A DNA stretch of 64,000 nucleotides, taken from assembly GCA_029261055.1 (NCBI GenBank), contig JAJDCA010000018.1, positions 18,197-82,196 of the forward strand, written 5' to 3'. Position numbers and translations under genes: made by a program. The DNA comes from Candidatus Omnitrophota bacterium (GTDB lineage Bacteria; Omnitrophota; Gorgyraeia; Zapsychrales; Zapsychraceae). The notes under the pieces are model-generated. The model had not been told where the DNA came from. It did no database searches and saw nothing but the letters and a program-made list of their open reading frames with translations. How positions within the stretch are numbered: the first letter of the stretch is position 1; every line of letters starts with the position of its first letter. Positions 14,617-52,750 of this stretch are shown piece after piece.

Positions 14617-16981
14617 GCATTAACTCCCAAATCTTTAAACGTTGTTGTTCGGCAGGAACAAAACCTGGTTTAAGCTCCAAAACTTTTTCAAAACTTTTTA
14701 AAGCCTCTGGATATTTCTCTAAATTTATAAAAACAATGCCCTTATTGTAATACACTTCCAGGAAATCAGGATTAATTTCTAAAGCCTTCGCATAATCCGC
14801 CAGCGCAGCCTCATATTCTTTTTTCTCCACATAAGCCGTGCCCCGATTACTGTACGCCTGCGCATAGTTAGGATTAAGCGCTATGGCTTGTGTGTAATCC
14901 GCCAGGGCTAAATCATATTGCCTCTTCTTTCCGTAAACAATGCCGCGGTTATAATAAACGGTTTCAAATCCAGAATCAAGCTCTAAGGCTTTATTGTAAT
15001 CTGCTAAGGCTAAATCAAGTTGGCCCATTTTTTCATACACAAGCCCACGATTACTGTAAGAACTTTTATCATCCGGATCAAACGCCAAAGCTTTTTGATA
15101 ATCCGTTAGCGCCTTATCAAACTTTCCCTGTTTTCCGTACACAATTCCCCTGTTCCCATAGGCTTTAGCATAGTTCGGATTAATCGCCAACGTCTTTTCA
15201 TACTCCTGTAAAGCTAAATCAAATCGGCCTTTTTTTTCATAAATAATCCCGATGTTATTGTACACTTCTTCCAGGCCGGAACGCGATGCCAGGGCTTTTT
15301 GATAATCCTTAAGGGCCAAATCATATTGGCCTCGCTGCCTAAAAATATTCCCACGATTATTAAAAATTTTGATGGAATCCGGTGTAAGCTCAAGCGCATG
15401 ATTAAAATCTGCCAGCGCCAAATCATACTGACCCATTTGATCGTACACAACGCCTCGATTACTGTAGGCCTCAGCATAATTGGGCTTAAGCTTTAAAGCC
15501 TGATTATGGTCGACGAGCGCAAGATCATACCGCCGCTTTTTTTCATGAACAACACCCCGATTTGTGTAGGCCTGCGCATAATATGGATTAAGACTTAAGG
15601 CCCGATCATAATGTTTAAACGCCAAAGAATATTCATTACCTTGAAAATACGCACTCCCCAAATTATTATGCGCCCTGGCTTTATTCGGCGATTTATGGAC
15701 GACGTCTTCCCACAAATTTATTTCATTACGCCAAACTTGATTTCTCTGAAACGTCAGATAAGACAATGTCACAATAATAAGACTAATCGTAACCATGCAC
15801 TTTTTAGGATTTTTAAAAATCTGAAACATCCCCCCACACATGAACAAGGCCGCCCCCACCATCGCCAAATAAAGTTTATGTTCAAAAATAACATGCCGCC
15901 GAGGAATAAAGTTTGGTGCCAAGGCAATAAAAAACCAAAACAGCCCAAAGGCCGCTAACATATTACGTTTGCGCAACCAGAATATCAACCACCCCATGAT
16001 GCCCAAAAGAAATACAAAACTCAAAAACGTCGATCCTTCAAAAAAAGTTTGAGACAACGGAAAATCATAATCTGCATTCTGCCCGATAGGAAAAAGGGTA
16101 AGTTTGATAAATGTCGTCATCACCCTAAACTGCGTCATCACATATTTACCAAATGTAATGACATCGCCGTAATGCGATTCCGACATCTTTTGTCCAAACA
16201 CTACGCCCTTAATGTTAAAAGAAAATACGGCCGGGACAATAAGACAGAATAATAAAATCGGAATCACATACCGTCGTTTTGCTTTTAGAAAAAAATACTC
16301 AATCAAGAGAATCATCAATGGCAAAGTGATAACGATTTCTTTGGTAAACATCCCTAATACCGCAGCAATCGCAGCACCTAAAAAATGTACAGACGCGATT
16401 AATCCTGCCTTGCCGGCAGGCAGGCGCGTCTCTACGCCTCGCCCTTTAATGTAAAAACACAACGAAAGCAAATAAAACATCGTTGCCAAAGAAGCAAACC
16501 GCTGTGTAATGTACGTCACCGCCTGCGTCTGCAACGGGTGCGCCACAAAAATCAACGCAACAAAAAGAGCAACACTCGAACCGTACACAAACCTCGGGGG
16601 TTTGTATGGGTTTAAACCCATACAAACCCCCGAGGTTTGTGTACGGTTACCGCGCTTCACAAGCATCCCCACCAACCACCACACCAACACCGCCGTGGTC
16701 AAATGAATCACCAAATTCGTCACGTGATACCAAAAAGCATCGTACTGATGCACATGATAATTCAGCGCAAACGAATAAAACGCTACAAACCGTGACGGCT
16801 GACTCAGCATATTCCAAAGACCAGAAACATTACTGATGTCTCGAATCGCCGGATTCCCCAGAATAAACTGATGATCATCAAAATGAAAAGCCTCGTGCAA
16901 CGTATTCGCATACACCACCGCACCTAAAAGGCAGATCAAAACCACCGGAAACCAATTTTTAATTTTTTGGGATATTACCAT
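14609..16981 (-). CDS. Paralog 3: PMT/TMTC-like membrane domain + TPR repeats
   Basis: AFHFDD, SQPSRFVAFYSFALNYHVH; TPR array. Confidence 0.6.
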   Translation of the reverse strand: MVISQKIKNWFPVVLICLLGAVVYANTLHEAFHFDDHQFILGNPAIRDISNVSGLWNMLSQPSRFVAFYSFALNYHVHQYDAFWYHVTNLVIHLTTAVLVWWLVGMLVKRGNRTQTSGVCMGLNPYKPPRFVYGSSVALFVALIFVAHPLQTQAVTYITQRFASLATMFYLLSLCFYIKGRGVETRLPAGKAGLIASVHFLGAAIAAVLGMFTKEIVITLPLMILLIEYFFLKAKRRYVIPILLFCLIVPAVFSFNIKGVVFGQKMSESHYGDVITFGKYVMTQFRVMTTFIKLTLFPIGQNADYDFPLSQTFFEGSTFLSFVFLLGIMGWLIFWLRKRNMLAAFGLFWFFIALAPNFIPRRHVIFEHKLYLAMVGAALFMCGGMFQIFKNPKKCMVTISLIIVTLSYLTFQRNQVWRNEINLWEDVVHKSPNKARAHNNLGSAYFQGNEYSLAFKHYDRALSLNPYYAQAYTNRGVVHEKKRRYDLALVDHNQALKLKPNYAEAYSNRGVVYDQMGQYDLALADFNHALELTPDSIKIFNNRGNIFRQRGQYDLALKDYQKALASRSGLEEVYNNIGIIYEKKGRFDLALQEYEKTLAINPNYAKAYGNRGIVYGKQGKFDKALTDYQKALAFDPDDKSSYSNRGLVYEKMGQLDLALADYNKALELDSGFETVYYNRGIVYGKKRQYDLALADYTQAIALNPNYAQAYSNRGTAYVEKKEYEAALADYAKALEINPDFLEVYYNKGIVFINLEKYPEALKSFEKVLELKPGFVPAEQQRLKIWELMHD
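16391..16432. repeat. ATTAAT-centred palindrome interrupted by a nested palindrome, site 0 of paralog 3
   Basis: agacgcgattaatc [ctgccttgccggcaggcagg] cgcgtct; encodes ETRL-PAGKAG-LIASV. Confidence 0.7.
16581..16646. repeat. 66-bp perfect palindrome, site 1 of paralog 3
   Basis: ccgtacacaaacctcgggggtttgtatgggttt|aaacccatacaaacccccgaggtttgtgtacgg; encodes GLNPYKPPRFVYG. Confidence 0.85.
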
Positions 16982-19499
16982 CTAATAATGCATTATCTAT
17001 TTTCTTACCCAACATTTTAAATTTTTGCAAATCTGCCTTTGCTTCTGACTCTCGGTTCTTTTGCTGATAAATACTCGCCCTGTTTTTGTACGCCATGGCA
17101 TAGTTGGGATTAATGGCCAGGGCCTTATTAAAATCTTCAAGGGCGCGCGCATATTTACCTTGTGACTTATAAATAGTCCCCCGATTATTATACGCGACAT
17201 AAAGCTGAGGATTAATTTCAACAGCCCGTGTAAAATCAGCCAAGGCTAAATCATCCTTGCCTTGCCTTTCATACACAGCGCCCCGATTAGTGTATGCCTT
17301 ATCATATTGCGGATTAATCACGATGGCCTGCGTTAAGTTTTCAAGCGCTAAATCATATTGCTGCTTTCGAATGTAAATAAGCCCACGATTATAATAGGCC
17401 TTATCGAGCTCCGGATTAATGGCCAAAGCTTTATTCAAGTCTTTCATCGCTAAATCATACTGTCCTTTCTTTCCATAAATAATGCCACGATTACTGTACG
17501 CCTCATCCAGTCGCGCATCAATTTCAATCGCCCTACTGTAATCAGCCAGCGCCATATCATCTTGATTTTGCACGGCATGCACGGCACCCCGGTTATTAAA
17601 CGCCATGGCATACTGCGGGTTCAACTCAACAGCTTTGCTGTAATCCTTCATCGCCAAATCATATTGCCCCTTCGCCTTGTACACAACCCCTCGATTATTG
17701 TAAACCTCTCCAATGCCCGGATTAATTTCTAAAGCCTTATTAAAATCTGCCAAGGCCAAATCATATCGCCCTGTCGCCTCATACACCATGCCCCTATTAC
17801 CGTAGACTTTGGCATACAATGGATTCAACGCAAGCGCCTTATTGTAATCATCCAAGGCCAAATCATACGACCCCTTCTTCTTATGAATAATGCCACGGTT
17901 GTGATACGCTTTATAAAAATACGGATTAATCTCTAACGCCTTATTAAAATCTTCCAAAGCCAAATCACTTTTATCGTCGGTACGATACACCGCCCCACGA
18001 TTGCTTCGCGCCCCATCCAAATCAGGATCAATTGCTAAGGCACGATTAAAATCTTTCAGCGCCAGCTCTTTTTGATTCGTTGCCCCATACACCGCCCCAC
18101 GATTATTGTAGGCATTCGCATCATCCGGCTCCATGGACACCGCTTTATCTAAATACACCATAGCCTTATCATACTGTCCCTGTTCAAAATACGCTCGTCC
18201 TAAATTAATTTGCGGACGCAATTTGTGGGGGGATTTCTGAACAACATCTTCCCAAAGCGTCACTTCATTCGTCCAAACTTTATTTCGTTGAAATGTTAAA
18301 TATGCCAACACACACACAATAATACTCAACACAACCGCACCTTTCTTAACATTTTTCATCAAACGAAATATGCCCATGCTCAACATTAAAGAAAAACCAA
18401 TCATCGGCAAATACAATTTATGTTCAAAAATAATATTTCTTCTTGGAATAAAATTAGGCAACAATGTAAGAAAAAACCAAAATATGCCAAAAGTAATCAA
18501 TGTGTAACGGGCCCGAATCTTAAAAGCAATGCCAAGCATAGCCCCTAATGCCAAAAAACTTAACAGTGTAGGAATTTCAAAGAAATGCTGTGACAAAGCA
18601 AAATCATATTCCACATTCTGCCCAATGGGAAAAAAAGAAAGTTTTACAAACGTCATCAACACCCTAAACTGCGTCATCACATATGTTCCAAACGTAATCA
18701 CATCCCCTGCATGCGATTCTGAAATCTTTGGAGCAAACAACATATCGGAAATATTAAATGAAAACAGCGCGGGGATAATCAATACAAATAGTAAAGCCGC
18801 GATTAATCGCGGCTCCTTAATTTTGCGTACCCCACCTAAAAACATACATTCAATCAAAAGGACCGTTAAAGGCAATGTAATCACGATTTCTTTGGTGAAC
18901 ATGCCGAGGATAGCAGAAACAGCAGCGCCAAGAAAGTATACAGACGAGATTAATCGCGTCTCTACGATCCTACCTTTAATGTAAAGACACACCGAGAGCA
19001 AATAAAACAACGTCGCCAACGACGCGAACCGCTGCGCGATGTACGTCACCGCCTGCGTCTGTACCGGATGCGCCACGAAAATCAGTGCGGTAAAAAGAGC
19101 AATAGTCGAACCGTAAACACACCCCGGGGGTGTGTATTTGGTATTTAACCTCATACACACCCCCGGGGTGTGTTTACGGTTACAAAGCCCCACAAGCATC
19201 CCCACAAACCACCACACAAGCATGGCCGTGATCAAATGAATCACGAAATTCGTCACATGATACCCAAACACATCCAACTGATGAAAATGATAATTCAGCG
19301 CGAATGAATAAAACGCCACAAAACGCGATGGCTGACTCAATAATTCCCCAATGCCCTTAATATTACCCAAATCTCGAATCGCAAAATTATCGATAATAAA
19401 AATATTATCATCAAACTGAAAATCACTATGGAAGGTATTAGAATAACTGATGATCCCTACCAGAATAATAATCGCCCACGCAAAAATTGGATACTTCAT
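16959..19499 (-). CDS. Paralog 4: PMT/TMTC-like membrane domain + TPR repeats
   Basis: DFQFDD, SQPSRFVAFYSFALNYHFH; TPR array. Start placed at MKYPIFAW (19499) to avoid a 44-bp overlap; the ORF-track start is 19547. Confidence 0.55.
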   Translation of the reverse strand: MKYPIFAWAIIILVGIISYSNTFHSDFQFDDNIFIIDNFAIRDLGNIKGIGELLSQPSRFVAFYSFALNYHFHQLDVFGYHVTNFVIHLITAMLVWWFVGMLVGLCNRKHTPGVCMRLNTKYTPPGCVYGSTIALFTALIFVAHPVQTQAVTYIAQRFASLATLFYLLSVCLYIKGRIVETRLISSVYFLGAAVSAILGMFTKEIVITLPLTVLLIECMFLGGVRKIKEPRLIAALLFVLIIPALFSFNISDMLFAPKISESHAGDVITFGTYVMTQFRVLMTFVKLSFFPIGQNVEYDFALSQHFFEIPTLLSFLALGAMLGIAFKIRARYTLITFGIFWFFLTLLPNFIPRRNIIFEHKLYLPMIGFSLMLSMGIFRLMKNVKKGAVVLSIIVCVLAYLTFQRNKVWTNEVTLWEDVVQKSPHKLRPQINLGRAYFEQGQYDKAMVYLDKAVSMEPDDANAYNNRGAVYGATNQKELALKDFNRALAIDPDLDGARSNRGAVYRTDDKSDLALEDFNKALEINPYFYKAYHNRGIIHKKKGSYDLALDDYNKALALNPLYAKVYGNRGMVYEATGRYDLALADFNKALEINPGIGEVYNNRGVVYKAKGQYDLAMKDYSKAVELNPQYAMAFNNRGAVHAVQNQDDMALADYSRAIEIDARLDEAYSNRGIIYGKKGQYDLAMKDLNKALAINPELDKAYYNRGLIYIRKQQYDLALENLTQAIVINPQYDKAYTNRGAVYERQGKDDLALADFTRAVEINPQLYVAYNNRGTIYKSQGKYARALEDFNKALAINPNYAMAYKNRASIYQQKNRESEAKADLQKFKMLGKKIDNALLDGNIPKN
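18942..18961. repeat. 20-bp ATTAAT palindrome (1 mismatch), site 0 of paralog 4
   Basis: agacgagattaatcgcgtct; encodes ETRLISSV. Confidence 0.6.
19111..19179. repeat. In-frame hairpin cassette, site 1 of paralog 4 (27-bp perfect stem)
   Basis: ccgtaaacacaccccgggggtgtgtat / 15-nt loop / atacacacccccggggtgtgtttacgg. Confidence 0.85.
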
Positions 19500-43173: not shown

Positions 43174-44067
43174 TTATCCTTTCCTTTTCCGTCTCTTTAA
43201 AAAGAATTTCACCATCGCATCTACGTACGGCACGTCGGTTGACATGTCCATAAAATCCATGCCGATGGAATTAAATAATTTTTCCCGTTGTGCCAACCGC
43301 CTTTGATTGCTCACCCGGTATTGATTACGCACCCCCGCATCGGATGTATCAATATGAAATAAACTTCCACTTTCCGCATCATGTAATGCCAGAACGCCAC
43401 AATTCGGCAATTCTTTTTCCCGAGGATCATTCAGCGTAACTGCAATCATGTCGTGCCGTTTGTTGGCCGTCGTCAGTCGCTTTTTCAAAACAGGCCATGT
43501 ATTGACGCCGACAAAAAAATCTGAAATCAAAAATGAAATAGTTTTACGTGTGGTCACACGATTGAGATATTCCAAGGCATGCACAATATCGGTACCTTGA
43601 CCTTCTGGCTCAAAATACAATACCTCACGGATGACACGCAAAACATGTTTTAAGCCTTTCCGTGGAGCAATAAATTTCTCAATTTTGTCCGTAAAAATAA
43701 TCAGTCCAACCTTGTCATTATTACGAATCGCTGACGTAGCTAAAACGGCCGACACTTCCGCCGCCAACTGACTCTTCAACGCATGCGTTGAAGCAAACCG
43801 GCTGGACTGCGAAACATCCACCAAAATCATCACAGTCAGTTCCCGCTCCTCAACAAACTTCTTCACAAACGGCCGCCCATGCCGGGCTGTTACGTTCCAA
43901 TCAATCGTACGAATATCATCCCCAGGCTGGTATTCCCGCACCTCATCAAACTCAATTCCCTGCCCCTTAAACACACTGTGATACTGCCCGGCAAACACAT
44001 CCGAAACCATGCGCCCCGTCGTAATCTCAATCTGTTTAACCTTTTGTAATATTTCTTTTGGAATCAT
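43174..44067 (-). CDS. DUF58 domain protein (MoxR-associated)
   Basis: EFDEVREYQPGDDIRTIDWNVTAR motif typical of DUF58. Confidence 0.7.
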   Translation of the reverse strand: MIPKEILQKVKQIEITTGRMVSDVFAGQYHSVFKGQGIEFDEVREYQPGDDIRTIDWNVTARHGRPFVKKFVEERELTVMILVDVSQSSRFASTHALKSQLAAEVSAVLATSAIRNNDKVGLIIFTDKIEKFIAPRKGLKHVLRVIREVLYFEPEGQGTDIVHALEYLNRVTTRKTISFLISDFFVGVNTWPVLKKRLTTANKRHDMIAVTLNDPREKELPNCGVLALHDAESGSLFHIDTSDAGVRNQYRVSNQRRLAQREKLFNSIGMDFMDMSTDVPYVDAMVKFFLKRRKRKG

Positions 44068-45146
44068 TTGTCTAAGAATTCTTTTTCAATTTCTTCAACC
44101 GCAGGTAAAGAGGATTTTAAATTATCTGGTAAAGCACGTGTCAATTCATATTCAGACACTCCTATCGGTTTAGTAAACCCCCTTAATGAATACTCAGCAA
44201 CAATTTTGTTTTTATCCTGACAAAGAATAAGGCCAATAGTCTGGTTGTCTGCCTTCTGCTTTAATTTATCATCAACCACATTACAATAAAAATTCATCTT
44301 ACCGGCATAATCAGGTTTAAATGTCCCCTTTTTTAAATCAATGACAATAAAACATCTTAATGTAAGATGATAAAATAAAAGATCAATGTAAAAATCACTA
44401 TCTCCAATGTCCAAGTGGTACTGCCTGCCGACAAATGAAAATCCTTGCCCAAGTTCAAGTAAAAATTTTTCCAAATGTCGTACAAGACCTGTTTCAAGCT
44501 CCCTTTCATGAAAAGGTTCTTCAAGGGTCAAAAAATCAAATATGTAAGGATCTTTAAGAGTTTGTTTAGCAAGATCAGATTGAAATGCTGGTAAACGTTG
44601 CTCAAAATTTGTAATGGCTTGTCCTCCACGCTCATAGGTTTGATTATCAATCATCAATTGAAGGACATTCCGGCTCCATCCTTCTTTTATGGTCATATTC
44701 ATGTACCATAATCTAGCTGAAAAATTCTTAATCTTAGAAATTAATAATACATTATGCCCCCAAGGCAATTTTGCAACAGCCTGTTGCACTTTTGCAGAAA
44801 TGCTACTCGGATCTAATATTTTTTGTGTTTTCTTAATTTTTGCAACAGGCTGTTGCAAAATTGATAAATCTGGATATTCACGGGCAAATCGTATCATGTA
44901 CCCGATGTTCCTTTCTGAAAATCCCTTAATTTCGGGTAATTCATTTCGAAGATCTTTTGATAAATTTGGAATAATACCCGTGCCCCACCCTTCCATTTTT
45001 TGCCGCTTTTCAATCATCTGCCCAATATCCCAATAAAGATAGATTAATTCCGCATTAACAGACAAGGCCGCTTTGGTCTGCGCTGTTTGAATCCTACTTT
45101 TAATTTGCACTAAAAAACTTTGATATTCTTTTTTTGAAATTTTCAT
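44064..45146 (-). CDS. DUF1016/YhcG-family PD-(D/E)XK nuclease-like protein, embedded inside the MoxR operon
   Basis: N-terminus ...AELIYLYWDIGQMI...GWGTGIIPNLSKDL...GFSERNIGYMIRFAREYP (DUF1016_N pattern); C-terminus D..(E/D)LK-like region DLKKGTFKPDYAGKMNFY. Overlaps the DUF58 start by 4 bp and lies 20 bp from the MoxR stop. Confidence 0.55.
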   Translation of the reverse strand: MKISKKEYQSFLVQIKSRIQTAQTKAALSVNAELIYLYWDIGQMIEKRQKMEGWGTGIIPNLSKDLRNELPEIKGFSERNIGYMIRFAREYPDLSILQQPVAKIKKTQKILDPSSISAKVQQAVAKLPWGHNVLLISKIKNFSARLWYMNMTIKEGWSRNVLQLMIDNQTYERGGQAITNFEQRLPAFQSDLAKQTLKDPYIFDFLTLEEPFHERELETGLVRHLEKFLLELGQGFSFVGRQYHLDIGDSDFYIDLLFYHLTLRCFIVIDLKKGTFKPDYAGKMNFYCNVVDDKLKQKADNQTIGLILCQDKNKIVAEYSLRGFTKPIGVSEYELTRALPDNLKSSLPAVEEIEKEFLDK

Positions 45147-45165: not shown

Positions 45166-46161
45166 TTACGGCACTTCCACTTCATCTAATATTTTCTTAA
45201 TAATATCTTCCGGCGTCTTTTCCTCAGCTTCGGCTTCGTAGGTGATGATGACACGATGCCGAAGAACATCCATGCCGATGGATTTAACGTCCTGCGGGGT
45301 GACGTAACCTCGCCCCTGCACGAATGCGTAGGCCTTGGCGGCAATCGCTAAATTAATCGTCCCTCGCGGGGAAGCGCCGTATTGGATGAGGTCTTTAATG
45401 TCTTCAAGATTGTATTTCTCCGGATGTCGCGTGGCCTCAACAATGTCGACGATGTATTTTTGCACTTTTTCATCCACATAAATTTCATCGACCACTTCAC
45501 GTGCCCGCAAAATATCTTCCGGCTTAATAATTTTCTGCACATCTGTTTTGGCCTTCGTAAAAGACATGCGCTTGAGAATCTCGAGTTCTTCCTCTTTGGT
45601 CGGATATTCAATTTTGAGTTTAAACATAAATCGATCGACCTGCGCTTCAGGTAAAGGGTATGTCCCTTCCTGTTCAATCGGATTTTGCGTCGCTAAAACC
45701 ATAAACGGTTCATCCAATTTCATCGTCTCCTCCCCAATCGTCACTTGCCGCTCCTGCATGGATTCCAACAAAGCACTTTGCACTTTAGCCGGCGCGCGGT
45801 TAATCTCATCCGCCAAAATAATATTCGCAAAAATAGGCCCTTTTTTTACAGTAAACTCACTCTTCCTCTGATCATAAATCAGCGTCCCTACAATGTCCGC
45901 CGGCAGCATGTCCGGCGTAAACTGCAGGCGTTGAAACTTCGTTTGAATCGTCGACGAAAGCGTCTTGATTGACATCGTTTTAGCCAATCCCGGAACCCCT
46001 TCAAGCAAAATGTGCCCGTCTGCCAGAATACCAACAATCAATCGTTCCAACAAATACCTCTGCCCCACAATCACCTTCTGCGTCTCCAGCAAAAGTCCCT
46101 CAATAAATCCACTCGCCTTCTTCACCTTTTCATTAATCACCGTAATGTCACTGTGTGTCAT
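45166..46161 (-). CDS. MoxR-family AAA+ ATPase
   Basis: ILLEGVPGLAKT Walker A; QNPIEQEGTYPLPEAQVDRF; 331 aa. Confidence 0.85.
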   Translation of the reverse strand: MTHSDITVINEKVKKASGFIEGLLLETQKVIVGQRYLLERLIVGILADGHILLEGVPGLAKTMSIKTLSSTIQTKFQRLQFTPDMLPADIVGTLIYDQRKSEFTVKKGPIFANIILADEINRAPAKVQSALLESMQERQVTIGEETMKLDEPFMVLATQNPIEQEGTYPLPEAQVDRFMFKLKIEYPTKEEELEILKRMSFTKAKTDVQKIIKPEDILRAREVVDEIYVDEKVQKYIVDIVEATRHPEKYNLEDIKDLIQYGASPRGTINLAIAAKAYAFVQGRGYVTPQDVKSIGMDVLRHRVIITYEAEAEEKTPEDIIKKILDEVEVP

Positions 46162-46183: not shown

Positions 46184-46212
46184 CTGTACGGGCGGTTCGC
46201 GAACCGCCCCTA
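46184..46212. repeat. REP-like GC-core hairpin between the moxR start and the upstream gene stop
   Basis: gtacgggcggttcgcgaaccgcccctac; a sister of the copy at 52722. Confidence 0.7.
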
Positions 46213-46224
46213 CTCCAATTTTTT

Positions 46225-47229
46225 TCATATCTTAAACCCCTGATCCACCAACTCCTGATTCAAAAACCGTCCCTCGGCGGCAACTTTGTGTGCGTCTGTC
46301 TCGCCGGGCAAATAGAAAATGTCAGCTAGCGGGCGATCATATTTGTCGTAGCCGTAGGTTTTGATTACCAAAAATTTAACATTTTTTAGCTGATTTTCTA
46401 CAAATTTTTTTGCTTTTTGCCCCTCTACTGTCTTTAATTCTGGAGCGTAAACATCACGAAGCCTGAGCCGCTGGGTGGACATGTTGTGAAATCCTAAATC
46501 AATATTCACACGAATGGTGTCTCCGTCGGTAATCTTGTCAATAAAGGCTTTGTAGGTGAATGTTTTATTCTTTGCCGTGGTGGTTCGTTTAAAGCGGTAG
46601 CCATCTTCTCCTGTCTTCGTACACACGAGAATATCCTTGGCTTTGGGCTGCGTGATGCCTGTGAGTGACTTGTATGCATAAAACTTAAACCCACAGTCTA
46701 CCTGCAAAACGCCATTAACGATTTTAAGGAAATAATGGTACAACTGCCCGCGAACAAGCTTCAAGGGTTCTGAAGAAATATTTATTTGGGAATGAAAAGA
46801 TCTGGAAGACGCATATTTTTCCGCACGAACAATTTGTCTAAGCTGACGGGTGTTAAGATTTTCTTTGACAATGCGTTCTTCCAACTTCCGGCGCATTTTT
46901 AAATCTTCGACCCTAAGCAAAGTACGGTAGTGATCCCAATTAAAGAGTCGACGCGCGCCGACTTTTGGATACTGCCGGTAAAATTTGAGCGCATTAAACA
47001 GTGTTGCACGGTCAACCTGCGTATCTTGACTCAAGCGATTGACCACAGCCTCCCCGTACCCAGCCCGCACTTTATTCTGCAAAAGATCCCTGGCAATATG
47101 CTGCCCAACCTTCCAATACATTGCCGCCGTCGCCTGCTCTACAGCCTTGCGTCCAACGGCGATCTCATCTTTTACAGACTTCAGAAGCTTATTGTAAGTC
47201 GACAATGCTTTTGACATTTTAAAAAGCAC
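46225..47229 (-). CDS. Fusion protein: DUF1016_N-like domain + staphylococcal-nuclease (SNase/thermonuclease) domain
   Basis: N-terminus ...AAMYWKVGQHIARDL...GYGEAVVNRLSQD...FYRQYPK parallels the DUF1016 N-domain of the 44064..45146 gene; C-terminus DGDTIRVN...LRLRDVYAPE...YDRPLADIF matches SNase catalytic motifs. Confidence 0.5.
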   Translation of the reverse strand: MLFKMSKALSTYNKLLKSVKDEIAVGRKAVEQATAAMYWKVGQHIARDLLQNKVRAGYGEAVVNRLSQDTQVDRATLFNALKFYRQYPKVGARRLFNWDHYRTLLRVEDLKMRRKLEERIVKENLNTRQLRQIVRAEKYASSRSFHSQINISSEPLKLVRGQLYHYFLKIVNGVLQVDCGFKFYAYKSLTGITQPKAKDILVCTKTGEDGYRFKRTTTAKNKTFTYKAFIDKITDGDTIRVNIDLGFHNMSTQRLRLRDVYAPELKTVEGQKAKKFVENQLKNVKFLVIKTYGYDKYDRPLADIFYLPGETDAHKVAAEGRFLNQELVDQGFKI

Positions 47230-47235
47230 CCCAGA

Positions 47236-47263
47236 AAAAAGTACGTACGCGCGTACGTACTTT
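47236..47263. repeat. 28-bp perfect palindrome between the SNase-fusion gene and the MNT gene
   Basis: aaaagtacgtacgcgcgtacgtactttt. Confidence 0.7.
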
Positions 47264-47586
47264 TAAAACACATTTTTATTCTTTTCTTTCACGTAAAATA
47301 TTTTCCCACATTGATCAATATGAGTTTTAAAGGCAGGATTCGTGGTGGTCGCATAATCAACTACGTCAAAAAAATACGGCAAATTTGTTTCTTCCTCTAA
47401 AATGGCTTTAACTTTAGCTGTAACATCAAGATTAATGTCCCCTTTGAGAGCTAGGTCAACGTCCGACCCTTTTTTGTGTGTATTCACAGCCCGAGAACCA
47501 AAAATGAGCACACTTTCTATTTCGTCAAATTGACGAAAAATATTTTTGACCTGAATAATTTCCTGCTCTGTTAAACCAAAATTCAT
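47263..47586 (-). CDS. Nucleotidyltransferase (MntA-like antitoxin, Pol-beta superfamily)
   Basis: IFGSRAVNTHKKGSDVDLAL = GS...D.D nucleotidyltransferase motif; 107 aa. Confidence 0.7.
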   Translation of the reverse strand: MNFGLTEQEIIQVKNIFRQFDEIESVLIFGSRAVNTHKKGSDVDLALKGDINLDVTAKVKAILEEETNLPYFFDVVDYATTTNPAFKTHIDQCGKIFYVKEKNKNVF

Positions 47587-47595
47587 TTTATTGAT

Positions 47596-47997
47596 TCATT
47601 CCGACTTTAAGGATTTAAAAAAACCATGCGTTTCCTGAATCACTTTAAAATATTTTTCCTTAATAAGATCCACGGCCTCCTGCACTCTGGCCTCATCGTA
47701 GGTATGCGTCATCAAATTACGCTTTTCAAGCATCTCAAGCCATGCCGTACCATCTGGAATGTATTGCGCCTGGTACGCTTGCTTAATAGTATCACGCGGA
47801 CTTGTAGCCGTGATACCGTTAAACTCCAAATAATCTTTCAACGTTTTCCAGGCAAGTTCAAAGGTAAATTCAAATGTTTGAATAAGGCCTGCCCGAATAA
47901 GTTTATCATTACCGGCTTCCCGTTCAACAGCCTCACACAATTGCCGAAAAGCCTTGTCAAAATTTACAAATCGTTGTTGCCATCGAAGTTCTGTCAT
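47596..47997 (-). CDS. HEPN-domain protein (HepT / HI0074-family nucleotidyltransferase substrate-binding toxin)
   Basis: 133 aa; R..MTHTYDE HEPN-like motif; located immediately upstream of the MNT gene. Confidence 0.65.
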   Translation of the reverse strand: MTELRWQQRFVNFDKAFRQLCEAVEREAGNDKLIRAGLIQTFEFTFELAWKTLKDYLEFNGITATSPRDTIKQAYQAQYIPDGTAWLEMLEKRNLMTHTYDEARVQEAVDLIKEKYFKVIQETHGFFKSLKSE

Positions 47998-48019: not shown

Positions 48020-51000
48020 TCACTCAAAAAACACATCCACCCGCGCGATTTTTTTGCTGCGGACATCTTCGGCATAAGGAGCCGGGATTGATGGTGATGA
48101 AAATACAACTGGCTTTTTGCGGTCTGCATAGTGCAGCTGAATTTCTCTCACTTCCGCTTTATTAGGACCAAATGTGTCTTTGCGATTAGGATTGTGGTAA
48201 ACAACAAGAATGTGACCTAAAAATTTGAAGGCGTACGTATTTTCCGGCAAATCGCCGACAGCCTTGTTTGTAAATAACCATGCCGCTAAAGCCGGTTGAA
48301 AATTCAGAACAAGTTTTTTCTCGGGACTCAACGTAAACGGATTTTTTCCAACATTCATCATCAACCACATGTGCACAAATTCGGCGGTACTTCCGGAAAG
48401 ACGCGCCACAAACCCACGCCCATGCAAAGCCGCATCATCATTGGCACTACTGACAATAAAGGAAGAATTTTCTAACACACTACGCCCGTACGTCTCCGGA
48501 TTCAAAAAGGGAACAAACACATGACGAAAATTTTCATAAAATTCTTCATACAATTCAGAACGCAAAATCTCTAACATAAATTTGTATTCCATGTGCATCC
48601 AAATTGATTCGTTTTCTAACCAACCCCGAGGGAAAATACGCATGCGTCCGATTTCATCGGTTTCGCTGTTCAAATCAGCATTCAATTTGTACATCTTTAA
48701 CTTCTTGTCAAAAAGGTGACTATCCCTCACTTGCCGGTACAACTCTTTAGCCTTGTCATGATTCGTTTCTACTCTTAAGGCATGGACATACCCCTCCAAA
48801 AACAACGGCAGCGCATGTTTTTTAAACTGCGTCGGACGAACATAAACACCTGCGTCCTGATTAGTTTTGTCCAGACTTTGATACTCTGTAATGTCATGAT
48901 AAAAATACGTGGCCATCAAACCGTTGTCGGCCTTGGCCTGATCAACAGCCTTATTAACTCTGTCGATGACTAAACTGAGAAAGTTTTTAATCTCGGTAAC
49001 CTTCATAGCTTTTTCTGCCCCATCAATACCCTGACGGACACATTGGCGGTAACGCTCTTTGACATCATTAGCTTTATTCCAATACGCCTGCGGATCAGCT
49101 TCCAAAGATAAAATATGATTCAACCCGGAAACAAAGGTGGCCAGCTCTTCAAAAACCAAAATTTCCTCATTGTCTTCACAAGAAAGCTGCTTCAATGATT
49201 CGAGCAAAAACACACTAAAACGCTTCACTTCTAATGTTTCAGAAATGGCGGATCCCATGAGCCCCGGCAATCCGTTAAGCGAATCGCACCAGTTTGGCTT
49301 GTCAGCTTCCATCTCAACCCCGACGCCACTTGGATCTAAAGAAGAAATTTTATTTGCAATGAGACAAAGAAGCTTACATGCAAGATGCGTGTAATACACA
49401 GCCCCTTCCCCATTTCTTGTTTTCAACATGTGCCCATTATTTTCATCTGATTTTTCCTTAGACGCACATGCTACCGACTTGTATTGACGCACCCCGTGAT
49501 CTGTTAGCATGTAACGCTGATCACGCGGCAAAACATAATGGTCATTGTGGTAAAAATAAAACGGCTTTTTCTCAAGAAGCAATGACTTTAAATTTTCCGG
49601 ATAAAGCGTGAAATAACTGATGACCATGTCCATGTTGTATTTCCAATGGTCCGACCAAAAACCTTCACCATGATCTGCCAATTCCTGCTTACGGCACACT
49701 TCAAGGATGCGGCTCAGAAATTCCTTTACGCTTCCCTGCACAGAAAAATCATTTTCTGAAATAAAAAGAAGCAAATCTCCCGGAAGAAAAGTTTTTGTTA
49801 AAAATTCTTTCAATTTTGGCTGATCCTCTTCACCAAAATATGTCTGCAAAATACTTTTGCACTTTTCCTGATCCTCCACGGAAAAAGCCGTCCCCTTAAC
49901 CACAAGAGGATTGTACCCATCCGCCTGCACCAAATTCAAAAAACTAATCATATGATTGTCACCTACATCACCGTTAAACCAGACATCGTTGCGCCGATTC
50001 TGATTCACGTCACGGTAATTCCCATTACCCTGTGAATAATACGTCGCGGCAACAAAGAAATAATTGTAATCCCGTTCCAGATCTCCATGTTTTCGACTGT
50101 ACACGTTAAACGCCACATGCCCGTCATTGGTCTTCAACGAAACAGGAAGTCCTCCTCGCAAAATATTATCGAGGAACGTGTGCCCGCAATATTTGTCAAA
50201 CTCAGGCGAAGAACTGTGCGTTAACGCAAAACTTTTGATATCGTCAATGATCTCTTTATTTCTTTGCGCCTTATTCGCCAAAAAATCACCCGCCACAATA
50301 TTGTCCACAACCGCGTTTAACTGCTCAACACTCCGGGCAAACCCCAACACAGAAAAAATATCTTTCTTCGCCTTAGGGGCTACGGTAAAACGTCCGTAAC
50401 TCATGGCTGCCGGCGTACGATTGTCGGTCAATTGTTTGTCTGGTAAAGAAAAATCATCTTTCAGAAAATTAAGCGGAGCAATAAAATCATGGGCTTCGCC
50501 AAATACACGGGAAGCCTCGACAATAGGCTGCAATAATTTATCCCCCGACGCGTCCGGATCAAAACTAAAAAAGAAATTCCCTTCGGCGATCGGTGTTACC
50601 CGAGGCTTGTCAGACACTTCAACGTTCAGCTGAAAATACGGCGCCTTATTCTCAATATTACGCACCTTCACCCAGGCTTCAACCGTACGGGCAATAAATT
50701 TATTAAGCTCATCCGTAAGTCCAAACGGTACAATTAAAGGCAAACCATCGACCAATTCAATATCACGCTGTACAGTCCCTGTATTTTCTACCGTCAAGTG
50801 GCGAACCAGCCCGGCATACGGTTCATCCGGCAGGGTAAAATAATTAACCTTCACGGTTAAGCCTAAATCATGATTCACTTCTGTCAGCGTCAAATCATGC
50901 GCGGTCATGGACATGGTTTGTTTTGTGTCAAAATTTGTCCCGGTTAAATGCCGTTGAAATGGTTCCCAGTAAACAGGGTCACCCTTGCCGGAAGACACCT

Positions 51001-51277
51001 TAATAAAAGTACGAAATCCCTGCAACGCTGTGATCCGGTAAGACTTATTGGCCGGCTGAAATTCCATAATTGCATTATTCTTCGCTTCAATCCCGCAACT
51101 GGCAATACATTGCCCACGATTGACATAAAACGCCCACATCGGAATTCCCCACAATCCGGCAATGCCTGGAAAAAAGTTACTAAACGGTTTGCTCTCATTG
51201 TAATTTTCAATAACAAAACATCCCTTGTCGTCTAATTGATACTGTGCTTCTTGGGATGGTGATTTTTTCTTATTCAT
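48020..51277 (-). CDS. Large (1085 aa) uncharacterized protein, possibly a glycoside hydrolase/phosphorylase-like enzyme
   Basis: Long intact ORF with no signal peptide and no motifs I can place confidently; neighbours are GH15 and CE4 genes. Confidence 0.25.
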   Translation of the reverse strand: MNKKKSPSQEAQYQLDDKGCFVIENYNESKPFSNFFPGIAGLWGIPMWAFYVNRGQCIASCGIEAKNNAIMEFQPANKSYRITALQGFRTFIKVSSGKGDPVYWEPFQRHLTGTNFDTKQTMSMTAHDLTLTEVNHDLGLTVKVNYFTLPDEPYAGLVRHLTVENTGTVQRDIELVDGLPLIVPFGLTDELNKFIARTVEAWVKVRNIENKAPYFQLNVEVSDKPRVTPIAEGNFFFSFDPDASGDKLLQPIVEASRVFGEAHDFIAPLNFLKDDFSLPDKQLTDNRTPAAMSYGRFTVAPKAKKDIFSVLGFARSVEQLNAVVDNIVAGDFLANKAQRNKEIIDDIKSFALTHSSSPEFDKYCGHTFLDNILRGGLPVSLKTNDGHVAFNVYSRKHGDLERDYNYFFVAATYYSQGNGNYRDVNQNRRNDVWFNGDVGDNHMISFLNLVQADGYNPLVVKGTAFSVEDQEKCKSILQTYFGEEDQPKLKEFLTKTFLPGDLLLFISENDFSVQGSVKEFLSRILEVCRKQELADHGEGFWSDHWKYNMDMVISYFTLYPENLKSLLLEKKPFYFYHNDHYVLPRDQRYMLTDHGVRQYKSVACASKEKSDENNGHMLKTRNGEGAVYYTHLACKLLCLIANKISSLDPSGVGVEMEADKPNWCDSLNGLPGLMGSAISETLEVKRFSVFLLESLKQLSCEDNEEILVFEELATFVSGLNHILSLEADPQAYWNKANDVKERYRQCVRQGIDGAEKAMKVTEIKNFLSLVIDRVNKAVDQAKADNGLMATYFYHDITEYQSLDKTNQDAGVYVRPTQFKKHALPLFLEGYVHALRVETNHDKAKELYRQVRDSHLFDKKLKMYKLNADLNSETDEIGRMRIFPRGWLENESIWMHMEYKFMLEILRSELYEEFYENFRHVFVPFLNPETYGRSVLENSSFIVSSANDDAALHGRGFVARLSGSTAEFVHMWLMMNVGKNPFTLSPEKKLVLNFQPALAAWLFTNKAVGDLPENTYAFKFLGHILVVYHNPNRKDTFGPNKAEVREIQLHYADRKKPVVFSSPSIPAPYAEDVRSKKIARVDVFFE

Positions 51278-52130: not shown

Positions 52131-52236
52131 ACCCCTACGCCCCATGTAAATTTGCCCTACGTACAGGCATGATTCATCATGCCCCTTATTGTAAACCTGC
52201 CCTACGTACGGGCATGATTCATCATGCCCCTTATTG
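52131..52236. repeat. Tandem (about 45-bp period) REP-like hairpin repeats between the CE4 deacetylase and YqeY genes
   Basis: gccctacgtacaggcatgattcatcatgccccttattg then gccctacgtacgggcatgattcatcatgccccttattg, preceded by a partial cccctacg. Confidence 0.75.
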
Positions 52237-52695: not shown

Positions 52696-52721
52696 TTCAT
52701 CTCCTATGTTTACTGTACGGG

Positions 52722-52750
52722 CGGCTCGCGAGCCGCCCCTACGTTAAAGG
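52722..52750. repeat. REP-like GC-core hairpin (gggcggctcgcgagccgccc) with tacgg/cctacg flanks
   Basis: ctgtacGGGCGGCTCGCGAGCCGCCCctacg lies between the YqeY and DUF167 genes; a near-identical copy occurs at 46184..46212 (gtacgggcggttcgcgaaccgcccctac). Confidence 0.7.

What the first reader, a model, noticed from the sequence alone, without database searches (positions are those of the whole stretch)
46225..47229. DUF1016 N-terminal-like domain fused to a staphylococcal-nuclease domain
Seen directly:
- The N-terminal 90 aa parallel the N-domain of the neighbouring DUF1016 protein (..A.MYWKVGQHI...GYGEAVVNRLSQD...FYRQYPK versus ..LIYLYWDIGQMI...GTGIIPNLSKDL...FAREYPD).
- The C-terminus is instead an SNase fold (DGDTIRVN, LRLRDVYAPE).
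- Two DUF1016_N-containing genes with different nuclease effector domains flank moxR.

Inference: DUF1016_N acts as a shared sensor or targeting module on interchangeable nuclease effectors, as in defence-system domain shuffling.
Basis: partly seen in the sequence, partly recalled or inferred. Interest (0 to 1): 0.55.

Follow-up and report, generated by a model that had tools for sequence, protein, structure and literature searches.

The report
DNA-binding domain fused to SNase nuclease
This is a real, intact gene for a nuclease built from a ParB-like DNA-binding domain (DUF1016_N) and a compact phage-type staphylococcal-nuclease domain. It belongs to a fairly large, unstudied family of solitary accessory genes and sits here as a recent insertion next to moxR. 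It is interesting as a variant, but not a new kind of system.

Summary

- **N-domain:** it resembles the ParB/KorB/Spo0J DNA-binding domain, so it is a DNA-targeting module rather than a sensor.
- **Middle region:** a short beta domain between the two halves looks like a degenerate partial copy of the first SNase strands.
- **Family size:** about 400 clusters at 50% identity and 258 loci in GTDB species genomes (Omnitrophota, Planctomycetes, Latescibacterota, Leptospirales and others). Genomes often carry 2-3 divergent copies. No neighbour is conserved.
- **moxR link:** it is incidental. Close relatives have P1085-moxR-DUF58 contiguous. This window carries two independent accessory insertions: HEPN-MNT plus this gene, and YhcG.
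- **Domain history:** SNase-linked N-domains form their own clade, and the two local N-domains share only 22% identity. That points to an old fusion, not local shuffling.
- **Function:** a defence or selfish-nuclease role is plausible but untested. The window copy carries Tyr at the Ca2+-ligand position D40.

Interest is moderate to low.

The parts
46225..47217 (-). The gene itself (330 aa plus stop): DUF1016_N, short beta domain and SNase-like nuclease. An alternative GTG start lies at 47229.
   Evidence: ORF list. The identical 330-aa database protein P0001 supports the ATG start. Pfam hits. AF2 model with mean pLDDT 90.1.
46789..47217 (-). Residues 1-143: all-helical DUF1016_N domain, resembling the ParB/KorB/Spo0J HTH DNA-binding domain. 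Inferred to be the DNA-targeting module.
46573..46764 (-). Residues 152-215: small four-stranded beta domain with the conserved motifs RG (156-157) and D-C/L-G-F (174-177). It is probably a degenerate partial duplicate of the first SNase strands and lacks the DGDT motif.
   Evidence: Strands at 161-167, 170-174, 196-201 and 207-211. Invariant or near-invariant R156, G157, D174, G176 and F177. hhalign of this domain against the SNase domain gives probability 88%, E 3e-6 over 34 columns.
46228..46566 (-). Residues 218-330: compact SNase-like nuclease domain of the phage phrog_452 type. It carries D231/D233/T234, R252, E260 and R295, has Tyr257 in place of SNase D40, and lacks the C-terminal helix 3 with Y113/Y115.
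47241..47260 (.). Perfect 20-nt palindrome GTACGTACGCGCGTACGTAC followed by TTTTTT on the coding (minus) strand, lying between the MNT gene and this gene. It is terminator-like.
   Evidence: Sequence. Terminator scan. Unique in the window.
46190..46209 (.). Perfect 20-nt palindrome GGGCGGTTCGCGAACCGCCC between this gene's stop codon and the moxR ribosome-binding site.
   Evidence: Sequence. A second copy with compensatory changes lies at 52719-52738. It is absent from the P1085-moxR spacer of relatives.
47263..47997 (-). HEPN-like gene (NTase_sub_bind, 47596-47997) and MNT nucleotidyltransferase gene (47263-47586). This toxin-antitoxin pair lies in the same 1.86-kb insert as the target gene.
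   Evidence: Pfam. The insert is absent from all 80 moxR relatives.
44064..45146 (-). Neighbouring full YhcG protein (DUF1016_N + YhcG_C PD-(D/E)XK; PADLOC PDC-S02). It is a separate 1.08-kb insertion between moxR and DUF58.
   Evidence: Pfam. PADLOC E 6e-149. phrog_22762. In most relatives the moxR-DUF58 gap is 0-200 nt.
45166..46161 (-). moxR (AAA_3), first gene of a conserved moxR-DUF58-vWA (Bat-like) operon. It is the resident gene that the two insertions flank.
   Evidence: Pfam. Synteny in 80 metagenome relatives.

Best explanation
**What it is.** The gene encodes a cytoplasmic, modular DNA nuclease that stands alone rather than being part of a multi-gene system. It has three parts:
- An N-terminal helical DUF1016_N domain, related to the ParB/KorB/Spo0J DNA-binding domain. 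It is inferred to dock the protein on DNA and set target preference.
- A short beta domain, apparently a degenerate half-copy of the SNase N-terminal strands.
- A compact SNase-type catalytic domain of the kind found as roughly 110-150-aa stand-alone endonucleases in phages (phrog_452). It is inferred to cut the bound DNA.

**Family behaviour.** The gene belongs to a sizeable, uncharacterised, patchily distributed family. Members behave like accessory or conflict genes:
- They occur as solitary genes.
- A genome often has 2-3 divergent copies.
- The N-domain evolves fast while the nuclease domain is conserved.
- They are inserted in variable spots beside toxin-antitoxin and defence-candidate singletons.

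**In this window.** The gene arrived with, or next to, a HEPN-MNT pair between two genes that are adjacent in relatives. The YhcG on the other side of moxR is an independent insertion.

**Most likely role.** This step is inferred, not shown: a restriction-like, anti-mobile-element or selfish nuclease, parallel to YhcG (PDC-S02) but with a different catalytic fold.
For: **Shown.**
- Domain identities.
- The architecture is conserved in 80 of the 80 best GTDB loci, out of 258 loci found.
- 88 of the 142 closest N-domain relatives carry SNase. About 402 cluster representatives match the N-domain profile at E<=1e-30.
- Catalytic residues D21, R35 and R87 are invariant and E43 is present in 28 of 32 members of the A1 alignment of homologues, which was not selected on active-site motifs.
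- Stand-alone phage homologues share the same DGDT...IDLGF...RLRL.GI(D/N)APE...KYGR motifs and the short C-terminus.
- There is no conserved neighbour. The largest neighbour cluster covers 5 of 79 loci, and 143 adjacent proteins hit 176 Pfam families.
- Adjacent genes include AAA_14/DUF4143, Bro-N, ORF6N, MNT, DUF4172-Fic, ParE and Cas3, and give PADLOC PDC hits.
- 19 of 57 genomes have 2-3 copies at 32-87% identity. In paralogue pairs, homology is confined to the gene itself.
- Mean pairwise identity is about 30% for the N-domain against about 50% for the SNase domain.
- Synteny shows two insertions into P1085-moxR-DUF58. The same moxR|DUF58 junction in other relatives holds AbiEi/AbiEii, ParE and HNH_2 genes.

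**From the literature.** YhcG/DUF1016 is found on mobile elements and next to restriction-modification loci (PMC4316617, PMC9881135, PMC1189080).
Against: - No biochemical or genetic data exist for any member.
- The window copy has Tyr at the Ca2+-ligand position D40. In alignment A1 that position is D in 22 members, N in 8 and Y in 2. The whole family also lacks SNase helix 3 and Y113/Y115, so activity and metal dependence are uncertain.
- DNA binding by DUF1016_N rests on fold and profile similarity only. Pfam HTH_ParB is below its cut-off.
- Several family loci sit among housekeeping genes.
- No formal defence-island enrichment test with a control set was run.
- The one PDC-S02 (YhcG) representative tested elsewhere gave no protection against T4, T5 or T7.
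- AF2 pTM is 0.57, so the relative placement of the domains is not reliable.
Confidence: 0.6

Rival explanations
1. It is a selfish, homing-endonuclease-like or addiction-type nuclease gene. It spreads as a single-gene unit into intergenic junctions and persists because of its own nuclease activity, not because it protects the host.
For: - It is a solitary gene with no conserved partner.
- Duplications cover the gene alone, without transposase or long flanks.
- It is inserted between genes that are adjacent in relatives.
- Genomes carry several divergent copies.
- Three 5' stubs of family genes lie within 247-nt repeats in one Omnitrophota genome.
- The nuclease domain is shared with phage stand-alone endonucleases.
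Against: - No near-identical copies exist anywhere. The nearest homologue of the window gene is 48% identical, so there is no sign of recent mobility.
- No target-site repeats or conserved insertion site were found.
- Contexts differ in every locus.
- This reading is not mutually exclusive with defence.
Confidence: 0.2
2. It is a catalytically dead or weak SNase-fold protein that serves as a DNA- or RNA-binding regulator or nucleoid protein. SN domains of eukaryotic Tudor-SN act this way. The SNase-like part would bind nucleic acid rather than cut it.
For: - The window copy has D40 replaced by Tyr, and T41 is Ala.
- In alignment A1, which was not selected on active-site motifs, D40 is N or Y in 10 of 32 members and E43 is lost in 4 of 32.
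- The C-terminal helix is missing.
- A second, clearly inactive SNase-like half-domain precedes it.
Against: - D19, D21, T22, R35 and R87 are invariant, and E43 is kept in the window copy. Such conservation is not expected in a dead domain.
- The SNase domain is the most conserved part of the protein.
Confidence: 0.12
3. It works together with the adjacent genes, either as a third component of the HEPN-MNT module or as an accessory of the MoxR-DUF58-vWA (Bat-like) operon. The two DUF1016_N genes would then form a functional pair around moxR.
For: - All these genes are co-directional with short spacers.
- MNT-type genes are adjacent in 3 of the other family loci.
Against: - None of 80 moxR relatives carries a homologue of the target, YhcG, MNT or HEPN.
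- Among 484 neighbours of 79 family loci, phmmer with the window's MNT, HEPN, DUF58 and P1085 finds nothing, and finds only one weak AAA+ hit.
- A terminator-like hairpin separates MNT from the target gene.
- The two N-domains share only 22% identity.
Confidence: 0.05

Closest known systems
YhcG / DUF1016 family (COG4804; Pfam DUF1016_N + YhcG_C; PADLOC candidate PDC-S02)
   Same: - It has the same N-terminal domain family and a similar size of about 330-360 aa.
- It has the same overall logic: an N-terminal helical DNA-binding-like domain followed by a C-terminal nuclease.
- It has the same lifestyle: solitary, patchy, on or near mobile and defence loci.
- A member sits 1 kb away in this window.
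   Different: - The catalytic domain is an SNase/OB fold instead of PD-(D/E)XK, and there is no YhcG_C hit.
- An extra beta domain is present.
- The N-domains form a separate clade, with only 2 of 142 nearest relatives carrying YhcG_C.
- Identity to the local YhcG is only 22%.
- YhcG itself has no demonstrated function.
Staphylococcal nuclease / thermonuclease (Pfam PF00565; PDB 1sta)
   Same: - It shares the DGDT Ca2+-site motif and the R35, E43, Y85 and R87 equivalents.
   Different: - It is cytoplasmic and fused to other domains, not a secreted single-domain enzyme.
- D40 is Tyr in this copy.
- It lacks about 35 C-terminal residues, including helix 3 and Y113/Y115.
- It has a family-specific 'IDLGF' hairpin and an invariant Asp at the Y91 position.
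Phage stand-alone SNase-like endonucleases (PHROG phrog_452; 'TNase-like domain-containing protein' in uncultured Caudovirales)
   Same: - This is the closest sequence family for the C-terminal domain (E 6.7e-26; 32-43% identity in at least 520 IMG/VR loci).
- It shares the motifs and the short C-terminus.
   Different: - The phage proteins are 107-147 aa with no DUF1016_N and no middle domain.
- None of the 80 best viral loci matched the N-terminal half.
- Their function is also untested.
ParB / Spo0J / Noc / KorB HTH DNA-binding domain (Pfam HTH_ParB PF17762)
   Same: - Profile similarity covers the LS.GH.R.LL...lsVR.L segment (E 2.5e-5 to Spo0J).
   Different: - It has no ParB N-terminal CTPase domain and no C-terminal dimerisation domain.
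- The Pfam HTH_ParB score is below its cut-off.
- Neither a parS-like site nor DNA binding has been shown.
RP4/RK2 ParB of the parCBA multimer-resolution region: a Ca2+-dependent SNase homologue on a plasmid (recalled from my own knowledge of the literature, not checked here)
   Same: - It is an intracellular SNase-family nuclease carried by a mobile element.
   Different: - It is a single-domain protein that is part of a three-gene operon.
- No DUF1016_N is present.

Membership tests
Pfam DUF1016_N (PF17761) | Match to the family HMM above the gathering score | tested here: met
   53.9 bits against a cut-off of 32.8, E 2.6e-14, residues 28-139. All 142 closest relatives also match.
Pfam SNase (PF00565) / thermonuclease fold | HMM match above the gathering score, and the SNase OB fold | tested here: met
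   [not shown]
Pfam SNase (PF00565) / thermonuclease fold | Complete catalytic and Ca2+ site: D21, D40, T41, R35, E43, R87 | tested here: inconclusive
   D233, R252, E260 and R295 are present. D40 is Tyr257 and T41 is Ala258 in the window copy. Across the family, D40 is D in 22, N in 8 and Y in 2 members, and E43 is kept in 28 of 32. The 76-sequence census is biased, because the search pattern included this motif.
Pfam SNase (PF00565) / thermonuclease fold | Full-length domain including C-terminal helix 3 and Y113/Y115 | tested here: not met
   Only profile positions 1-73 of 107 are matched. Family members end a median of 4 residues after the 'GLA' motif.
YhcG / DUF1016 family proper (PF06250; PADLOC PDC-S02) | C-terminal YhcG_C PD-(D/E)XK nuclease domain | tested here: not met
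   There is no YhcG_C hit in the target. PDC-S02 models match residues 1-147 only. The neighbour 44064-45146 does meet this feature (E 4.8e-67).
PHROG phrog_452 endonuclease | HMM match to the family profile | tested here: met
   E 6.7e-26, 92.3 bits, residues 211-328. The match covers the C-terminal domain only, and the phage members are stand-alone proteins of 107-147 aa.
ParB/KorB-type HTH DNA-binding domain (PF17762) | HMM match above cut-off, or clear fold match to the ParB DNA-binding domain | tested here: inconclusive
   [not shown]
ParB/KorB-type HTH DNA-binding domain (PF17762) | DNA binding | not testable with these tools
   This needs EMSA, SELEX or ChIP.
Restriction-modification system (Type I-III) | Cognate methyltransferase encoded alongside | tested here: not met
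   No methyltransferase is adjacent in the window. No methyltransferase family recurs among the 143 flanking proteins. One locus (P0017) lies in an island with MmeI-type and N6_N4 methyltransferase genes.
Validated anti-phage defence system | Protection against phage when expressed | not testable with these tools
   Only a candidate label exists, for the YhcG relatives (PADLOC PDC-S02). One tested PDC-S02 representative gave no protection against T4, T5 or T7.
HEPN-MNT toxin-antitoxin module (as a third component) | Conserved co-occurrence with the module | tested here: not met
   No homologue of the window's MNT or HEPN lies within +-4 genes in 79 family loci. Distant MNT-type genes are adjacent in 3 loci only.

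The most novel reading that the evidence does not exclude
The DUF1016_N-SNase proteins may be a previously unrecognised class of single-protein, methyltransferase-independent restriction-like defence nucleases. In this reading a fast-evolving ParB-like domain supplies target specificity, for example for modified or foreign DNA. Genomes would keep small repertoires of divergent copies. The nuclease domain would have been captured from a phage endonuclease. YhcG (PDC-S02) would then be the PD-(D/E)XK sister class that uses the same targeting domain.
Probability: 0.25. Interest if true: 0.6.

Novelty: new variant of a known kind. Interest (0 to 1): 0.35.

Why it matters
- **The DUF1016_N domain.** It is very common: about 23,600 cluster representatives match this family's N-domain profile. 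No function has been shown for it. Finding it on two unrelated nuclease folds, and finding that it resembles the ParB/KorB DNA-binding domain, gives a concrete, testable hypothesis for both YhcG (PDC-S02) and this family. The hypothesis is a DNA-targeting module that steers a non-specific nuclease.
- **The phage link.** The family ties a widespread phage endonuclease family (phrog_452) to a cellular fusion protein.
- **The genomic setting.** The locus illustrates how small accessory nuclease and toxin-antitoxin genes wedge into junctions of a conserved operon.
- **The limits.** None of this changes current concepts. Its value is as a lead for experiments on an abundant domain of unknown function.

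Tried and rejected
- **Gene-fusion artefact or frameshift.** Rejected, because the architecture is conserved in hundreds of loci.
- **Local duplication or shuffling between the two DUF1016_N genes.** Rejected. They share 22% identity, and their N-domains fall in different clades.
- **Functional link with moxR or the Bat-like operon.** Rejected on synteny.
- **Link with the HEPN-MNT pair.** Not conserved.
- **Conserved partner gene.** None found. Clustering 484 neighbours gave a largest cluster of 5 of 79 loci.
- **Insertion scars.** No direct repeats flank either insert, and no transposase or integrase is present. The flanking palindromes are not present in relatives' spacers. A similar palindrome occurs elsewhere in the window, so these are probably ordinary intergenic hairpins.
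- **5' gene stubs like those seen in L146.** None found in the window.
- **Other family members in the window.** None.
- **Word-indexed protein searches with each half alone.** These returned only a few mostly fragmentary hits and were uninformative.
- **Genome-collection scan with the 32-sequence alignment.** It failed for lack of a conserved stretch and was repeated with 13 sequences.
- **Foldseek against afdb50.** Unavailable, so I could not list UniProt or AlphaFold entries with this architecture.
- **Cluster look-up.** It gave no names or accessions.
- **Literature.** Searches found no paper on DUF1016_N or on an SNase fusion.
Full report
**1. What is in the sequence**

The minus strand carries an ORF at 46225..47229 (334 aa from GTG). 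An identical protein in the public collection starts at the ATG four codons downstream (330 aa). I therefore take 46225..47217 as the gene.

Pfam gives these matches:
- DUF1016_N at residues 28-139 (E 2.6e-14, 53.9 bits against a cut-off of 32.8).
- SNase at 254-332 in the numbering of the 334-aa GTG ORF, about 250-328 in the 330-aa numbering used elsewhere (25.7 bits against a cut-off of 21, but only profile positions 1-73 of 107).
- A sub-threshold HTH_ParB hit at 92-137.

The neighbour 44064..45146(-) is a complete YhcG protein: DUF1016_N at E 6.4e-44 and the YhcG_C PD-(D/E)XK domain at E 4.8e-67. moxR (AAA_3, 45166..46161) lies between the two genes. A profile built from the family's N-domains hits only these two ORFs in the whole window.

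**2. Anatomy**

An AlphaFold2 model built on 32 homologues is confident (mean pLDDT 90.1). Its pTM of 0.57 means the orientation between domains is not reliable. The model shows three parts:
- Helices spanning residues 2-143.
- A disordered hinge at 143-152.
- A four-stranded beta unit at 161-211, followed by an alpha/beta domain at 221-325.

*Middle beta unit.* It carries the conserved motifs RG and D-C/L-G-F. hhalign aligns it to the first strands of the family's own SNase domain at probability 88% and E 3e-6, but without the DGDT metal-binding motif. It looks like a degenerate partial duplication.

**3. The nuclease site**

In a 32-member alignment not selected on the active site:
- The equivalents of SNase D19, D21, T22, R35 and R87 are invariant.
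- E43 is present in 28 of 32 members.
- D40 is D in 22, N in 8 and Y in 2 members.

The window protein is one of the two with Tyr (LRLRDVYAPE against the consensus LRLRGIDxPE). All members end a few residues after the 'LNQxLLDxGLA' helix. They therefore lack SNase helix 3 and Y113/Y115. The census shows D40 and E43 nearly invariant. It is biased, because the genome scan used that very motif as its search pattern.

By my recollection of the classical SNase mutagenesis literature (not checked here), D40 substitutions reduce activity much less than changes at D21, R35 or R87. I therefore regard the window copy as probably active, but this needs an assay.

**4. Relatives of each half**

*C-terminal domain.*
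- It matches the phage family phrog_452 'endonuclease' far better than Pfam SNase (E 6.7e-26).
- A scan of IMG/VR found at least 520 viral loci that match only residues about 215-330, at 32-43% identity.
- In the 33 I inspected, these are stand-alone ORFs of 107-147 aa with the same motifs and the same short C-terminus.
- BFVD structures agree: 'TNase-like domain-containing protein', uncultured Caudovirales.

*N-terminal domain.*
- Its profile finds 23,587 cluster representatives at E<=1e-3, 7,762 at E<=1e-10 and 402 at E<=1e-30 among 1.84 billion.
- Of the 142 best new hits, all have DUF1016_N. 88 have a Pfam SNase hit, 74 hit HTH_ParB, only 2 carry YhcG_C, and single members hit HSDR_N or NucS_C.
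- The SNase-linked N-domains thus form their own clade. This points to one old fusion and not to ongoing shuffling.

**5. Distribution and genomic behaviour**

A scan of one genome per GTDB species found 258 loci. The 80 best all cover nearly the full protein. They come from Omnitrophota (most), Planctomycetales, Latescibacterota, Gemmatimonas, Leptospirales/Spirochaetota, Marinamargulisbacteria and Lysobacterales.

- **Copy number.** Among these 80 loci, 19 of 57 genomes contribute 2-3 copies, at 32-87% identity to each other. In five paralogue pairs examined, nucleotide homology is confined to the gene plus at most about 130 nt upstream.
- **Neighbours.** I called ORFs in all loci and clustered 484 neighbours within +-4 genes. 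The largest cluster spans 5 of 79 loci. The 143 immediately flanking proteins hit 176 different Pfam families.
- **Most frequent neighbour families (3 each).** AAA_14(/DUF4143), Bro-N and MNT-type nucleotidyltransferases. These are followed by ORF6N, DUF4172-Fic, ParE, DEAD/ResIII/Cas3 and ordinary housekeeping genes.
- **PADLOC hits among neighbours.** These include PDC-S13, PDC-M05A, SoFic, PDC-S04, PDC-S09, PDC-S01, PDC-S05 and Cas3.
- **Individual contexts.** They range from a restriction-modification and defence island (P0017: MmeI-type enzyme, HTH-M78 peptidase, DUF4411, N6_N4 methyltransferase) to plain housekeeping surroundings.
- **Domain conservation.** Mean pairwise identity is about 30% for the N-domain, about 25% for the middle unit and about 50% for the SNase domain, in two independently gathered sets. 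In recent paralogues the N-domain has often diverged most, for example 60% against 93% in L146/L151 and 41% against 76% in L157/L167.

This is the pattern expected of a variable targeting domain on a constant catalytic domain. I did not run a selection test.

**6. Why the two genes flank moxR**

A metagenome scan with MoxR returned 80 relatives at 66-79% identity.
- In the closest ones, the 1085-aa protein encoded at 48020..51277 lies directly upstream of moxR, with spacers of about 57-150 nt.
- In most relatives, DUF58 follows moxR within 0-200 nt.
- None of the 80 loci contains a homologue of the target, YhcG, MNT or HEPN.

This window therefore carries two separate insertions into a conserved neighbourhood:
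- A 1.86-kb block (HEPN-like NTase_sub_bind, then MNT, then the target gene) between P1085 and moxR.
- A 1.08-kb YhcG gene between moxR and DUF58.

In roughly ten other relatives the moxR|DUF58 junction holds 0.4-2 kb of other cargo, including AbiEi/AbiEii, ParE and an HNH_2 endonuclease. This junction is a recurrent landing place for small toxin-antitoxin and nuclease genes.

The target gene is bracketed by two perfect 20-nt palindromes. The one at 47241-47260 is followed by T6 and is terminator-like. The other lies at 46190-46209. Neither is present in relatives' spacers. A variant of the second occurs elsewhere in the window. I treat them as ordinary hairpins, not as recombination sites. 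No flanking direct repeats, transposase or integrase were found.

**7. Mechanism**

*Shown.*
- The domain composition, the conservation of the catalytic core and the family's size.
- Its solitary, multi-copy and patchy occurrence.
- The insertional nature of this locus.

*Inferred.*
- The N-domain binds DNA and sets target preference.
- The SNase domain cleaves.
- The protein acts as a restriction-like, anti-mobile-element or selfish nuclease, in parallel with YhcG.

*Background on YhcG.* YhcG/DUF1016 has long been predicted to be a PD-(D/E)XK nuclease with an N-terminal domain of unknown fold (PMC1189080). It is enriched beside invertible restriction-modification genes (PMC9881135). It rides on conjugative elements (PMC4316617). 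It is PADLOC candidate PDC-S02. The single representative tested did not protect E. coli against T4, T5 or T7 (bioRxiv 10.1101/2024.09.26.614923).

*Open question.* With no methyltransferase partner, self-DNA must be spared by target specificity (for example modified DNA), by regulation, or by low activity. None of these can be tested here.

**8. Comparison with known families and novelty**

The protein is a member of Pfam DUF1016_N. By fold and HMM it is a member of the SNase superfamily, and within that of the phrog_452 subfamily. It is not a member of the YhcG family proper, because the defining YhcG_C domain is absent.

It works like YhcG in outline, but with a different catalytic fold and an extra half-domain. 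Sources already label members 'thermonuclease family protein', 'endonuclease YncB' or 'DUF1016 N-terminal domain-containing protein'. No paper in the searchable library mentions DUF1016_N or this fusion.

I rate it a new variant of a known, and itself uncharacterised, kind. A specialist would find it a sensible domain swap rather than a surprise. The most useful outcomes are the ParB-like reading of DUF1016_N and the link to phage mini-SNases, both of which can be tested directly.

**9. Verdict**

The protein is a modular nuclease with a shared N-terminal module, but that module is for DNA targeting rather than sensing. The fusion is old and not a case of local shuffling. The moxR adjacency is coincidental. 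A defence role is unproven.
- Interest: 0.35.

Noticed in passing
window 44766-44788 and 44841-44863: A perfect 23-nt inverted repeat lies inside the YhcG coding region, in an insertion within its DUF1016_N domain. Each arm is itself nearly palindromic (TGCAACAGCCTGTTGCA) (I1 and D1).
   Followed up: no
window 46190-46209, 47241-47260 and 52719-52738: Perfect 20-nt palindromes bracket the target gene. A variant of the GGGCGG..CCGCCC one, with compensatory changes, lies at 52719-52738. They are probably a genome-wide class of intergenic hairpin.
   Followed up: partly
window 52145-52234: Two tandem 45-nt repeats (93% identical), each containing a GGGCATGATGAATCATGCCC-type hairpin, lie in the spacer between the polysaccharide-deacetylase gene and the next ORF (D2).
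   Followed up: no
window 9858-36935 (minus strand): About a dozen consecutive, co-directional 600-870-aa ORFs lie downstream of the Bat-like operon. The seven I scanned all have C-terminal TPR arrays behind an N-terminal region of about 450 aa with no Pfam match. This looks like a large tandem paralogue array.
   Followed up: partly
window 48020-51277 (minus strand): This 1085-aa protein has no Pfam hit. It is nonetheless conserved at 48-59% identity directly upstream of moxR in the closest relatives, so it is a syntenic partner of the moxR-DUF58-vWA operon with unknown function.
   Followed up: partly
moxR|DUF58 junction in L211, L220, L222, L225, L227, L228, L230, L236, L242, L243: In relatives, the spacer between moxR and DUF58 is repeatedly occupied by 0.4-2 kb of unrelated cargo, including AbiEi/AbiEii, ParE and an HNH_2 endonuclease. 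It is an insertion hot spot inside an operon.
   Followed up: partly
L146 (Omnitrophota JBFWOS010000001) 11149-11395, 12661-12907, 16943-17189: Three copies of a 247-nt repeat each contain the start codon and first 18 or so codons of a family gene (MPKSNLPSTYK...), followed by unrelated sequence. They lie just downstream of an intact family gene (9995-11020), with a Bro-N-like ORF in between. They may be remnants of repeated replacement or recombination at the gene's 5' end. No such stubs occur in the window.
   Followed up: partly
L102 9365-9988 and L141 9983-11017: In L102, a 207-aa partial family copy lies directly upstream of the full gene. In L141, the gene is split into two ORFs, which suggests a frameshift or pseudogene.
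   Followed up: no
P0053 (338 aa, from the representative library): The best hit of the N-domain profile is a protein with two tandem DUF1016_N domains and no nuclease domain.
   Followed up: no
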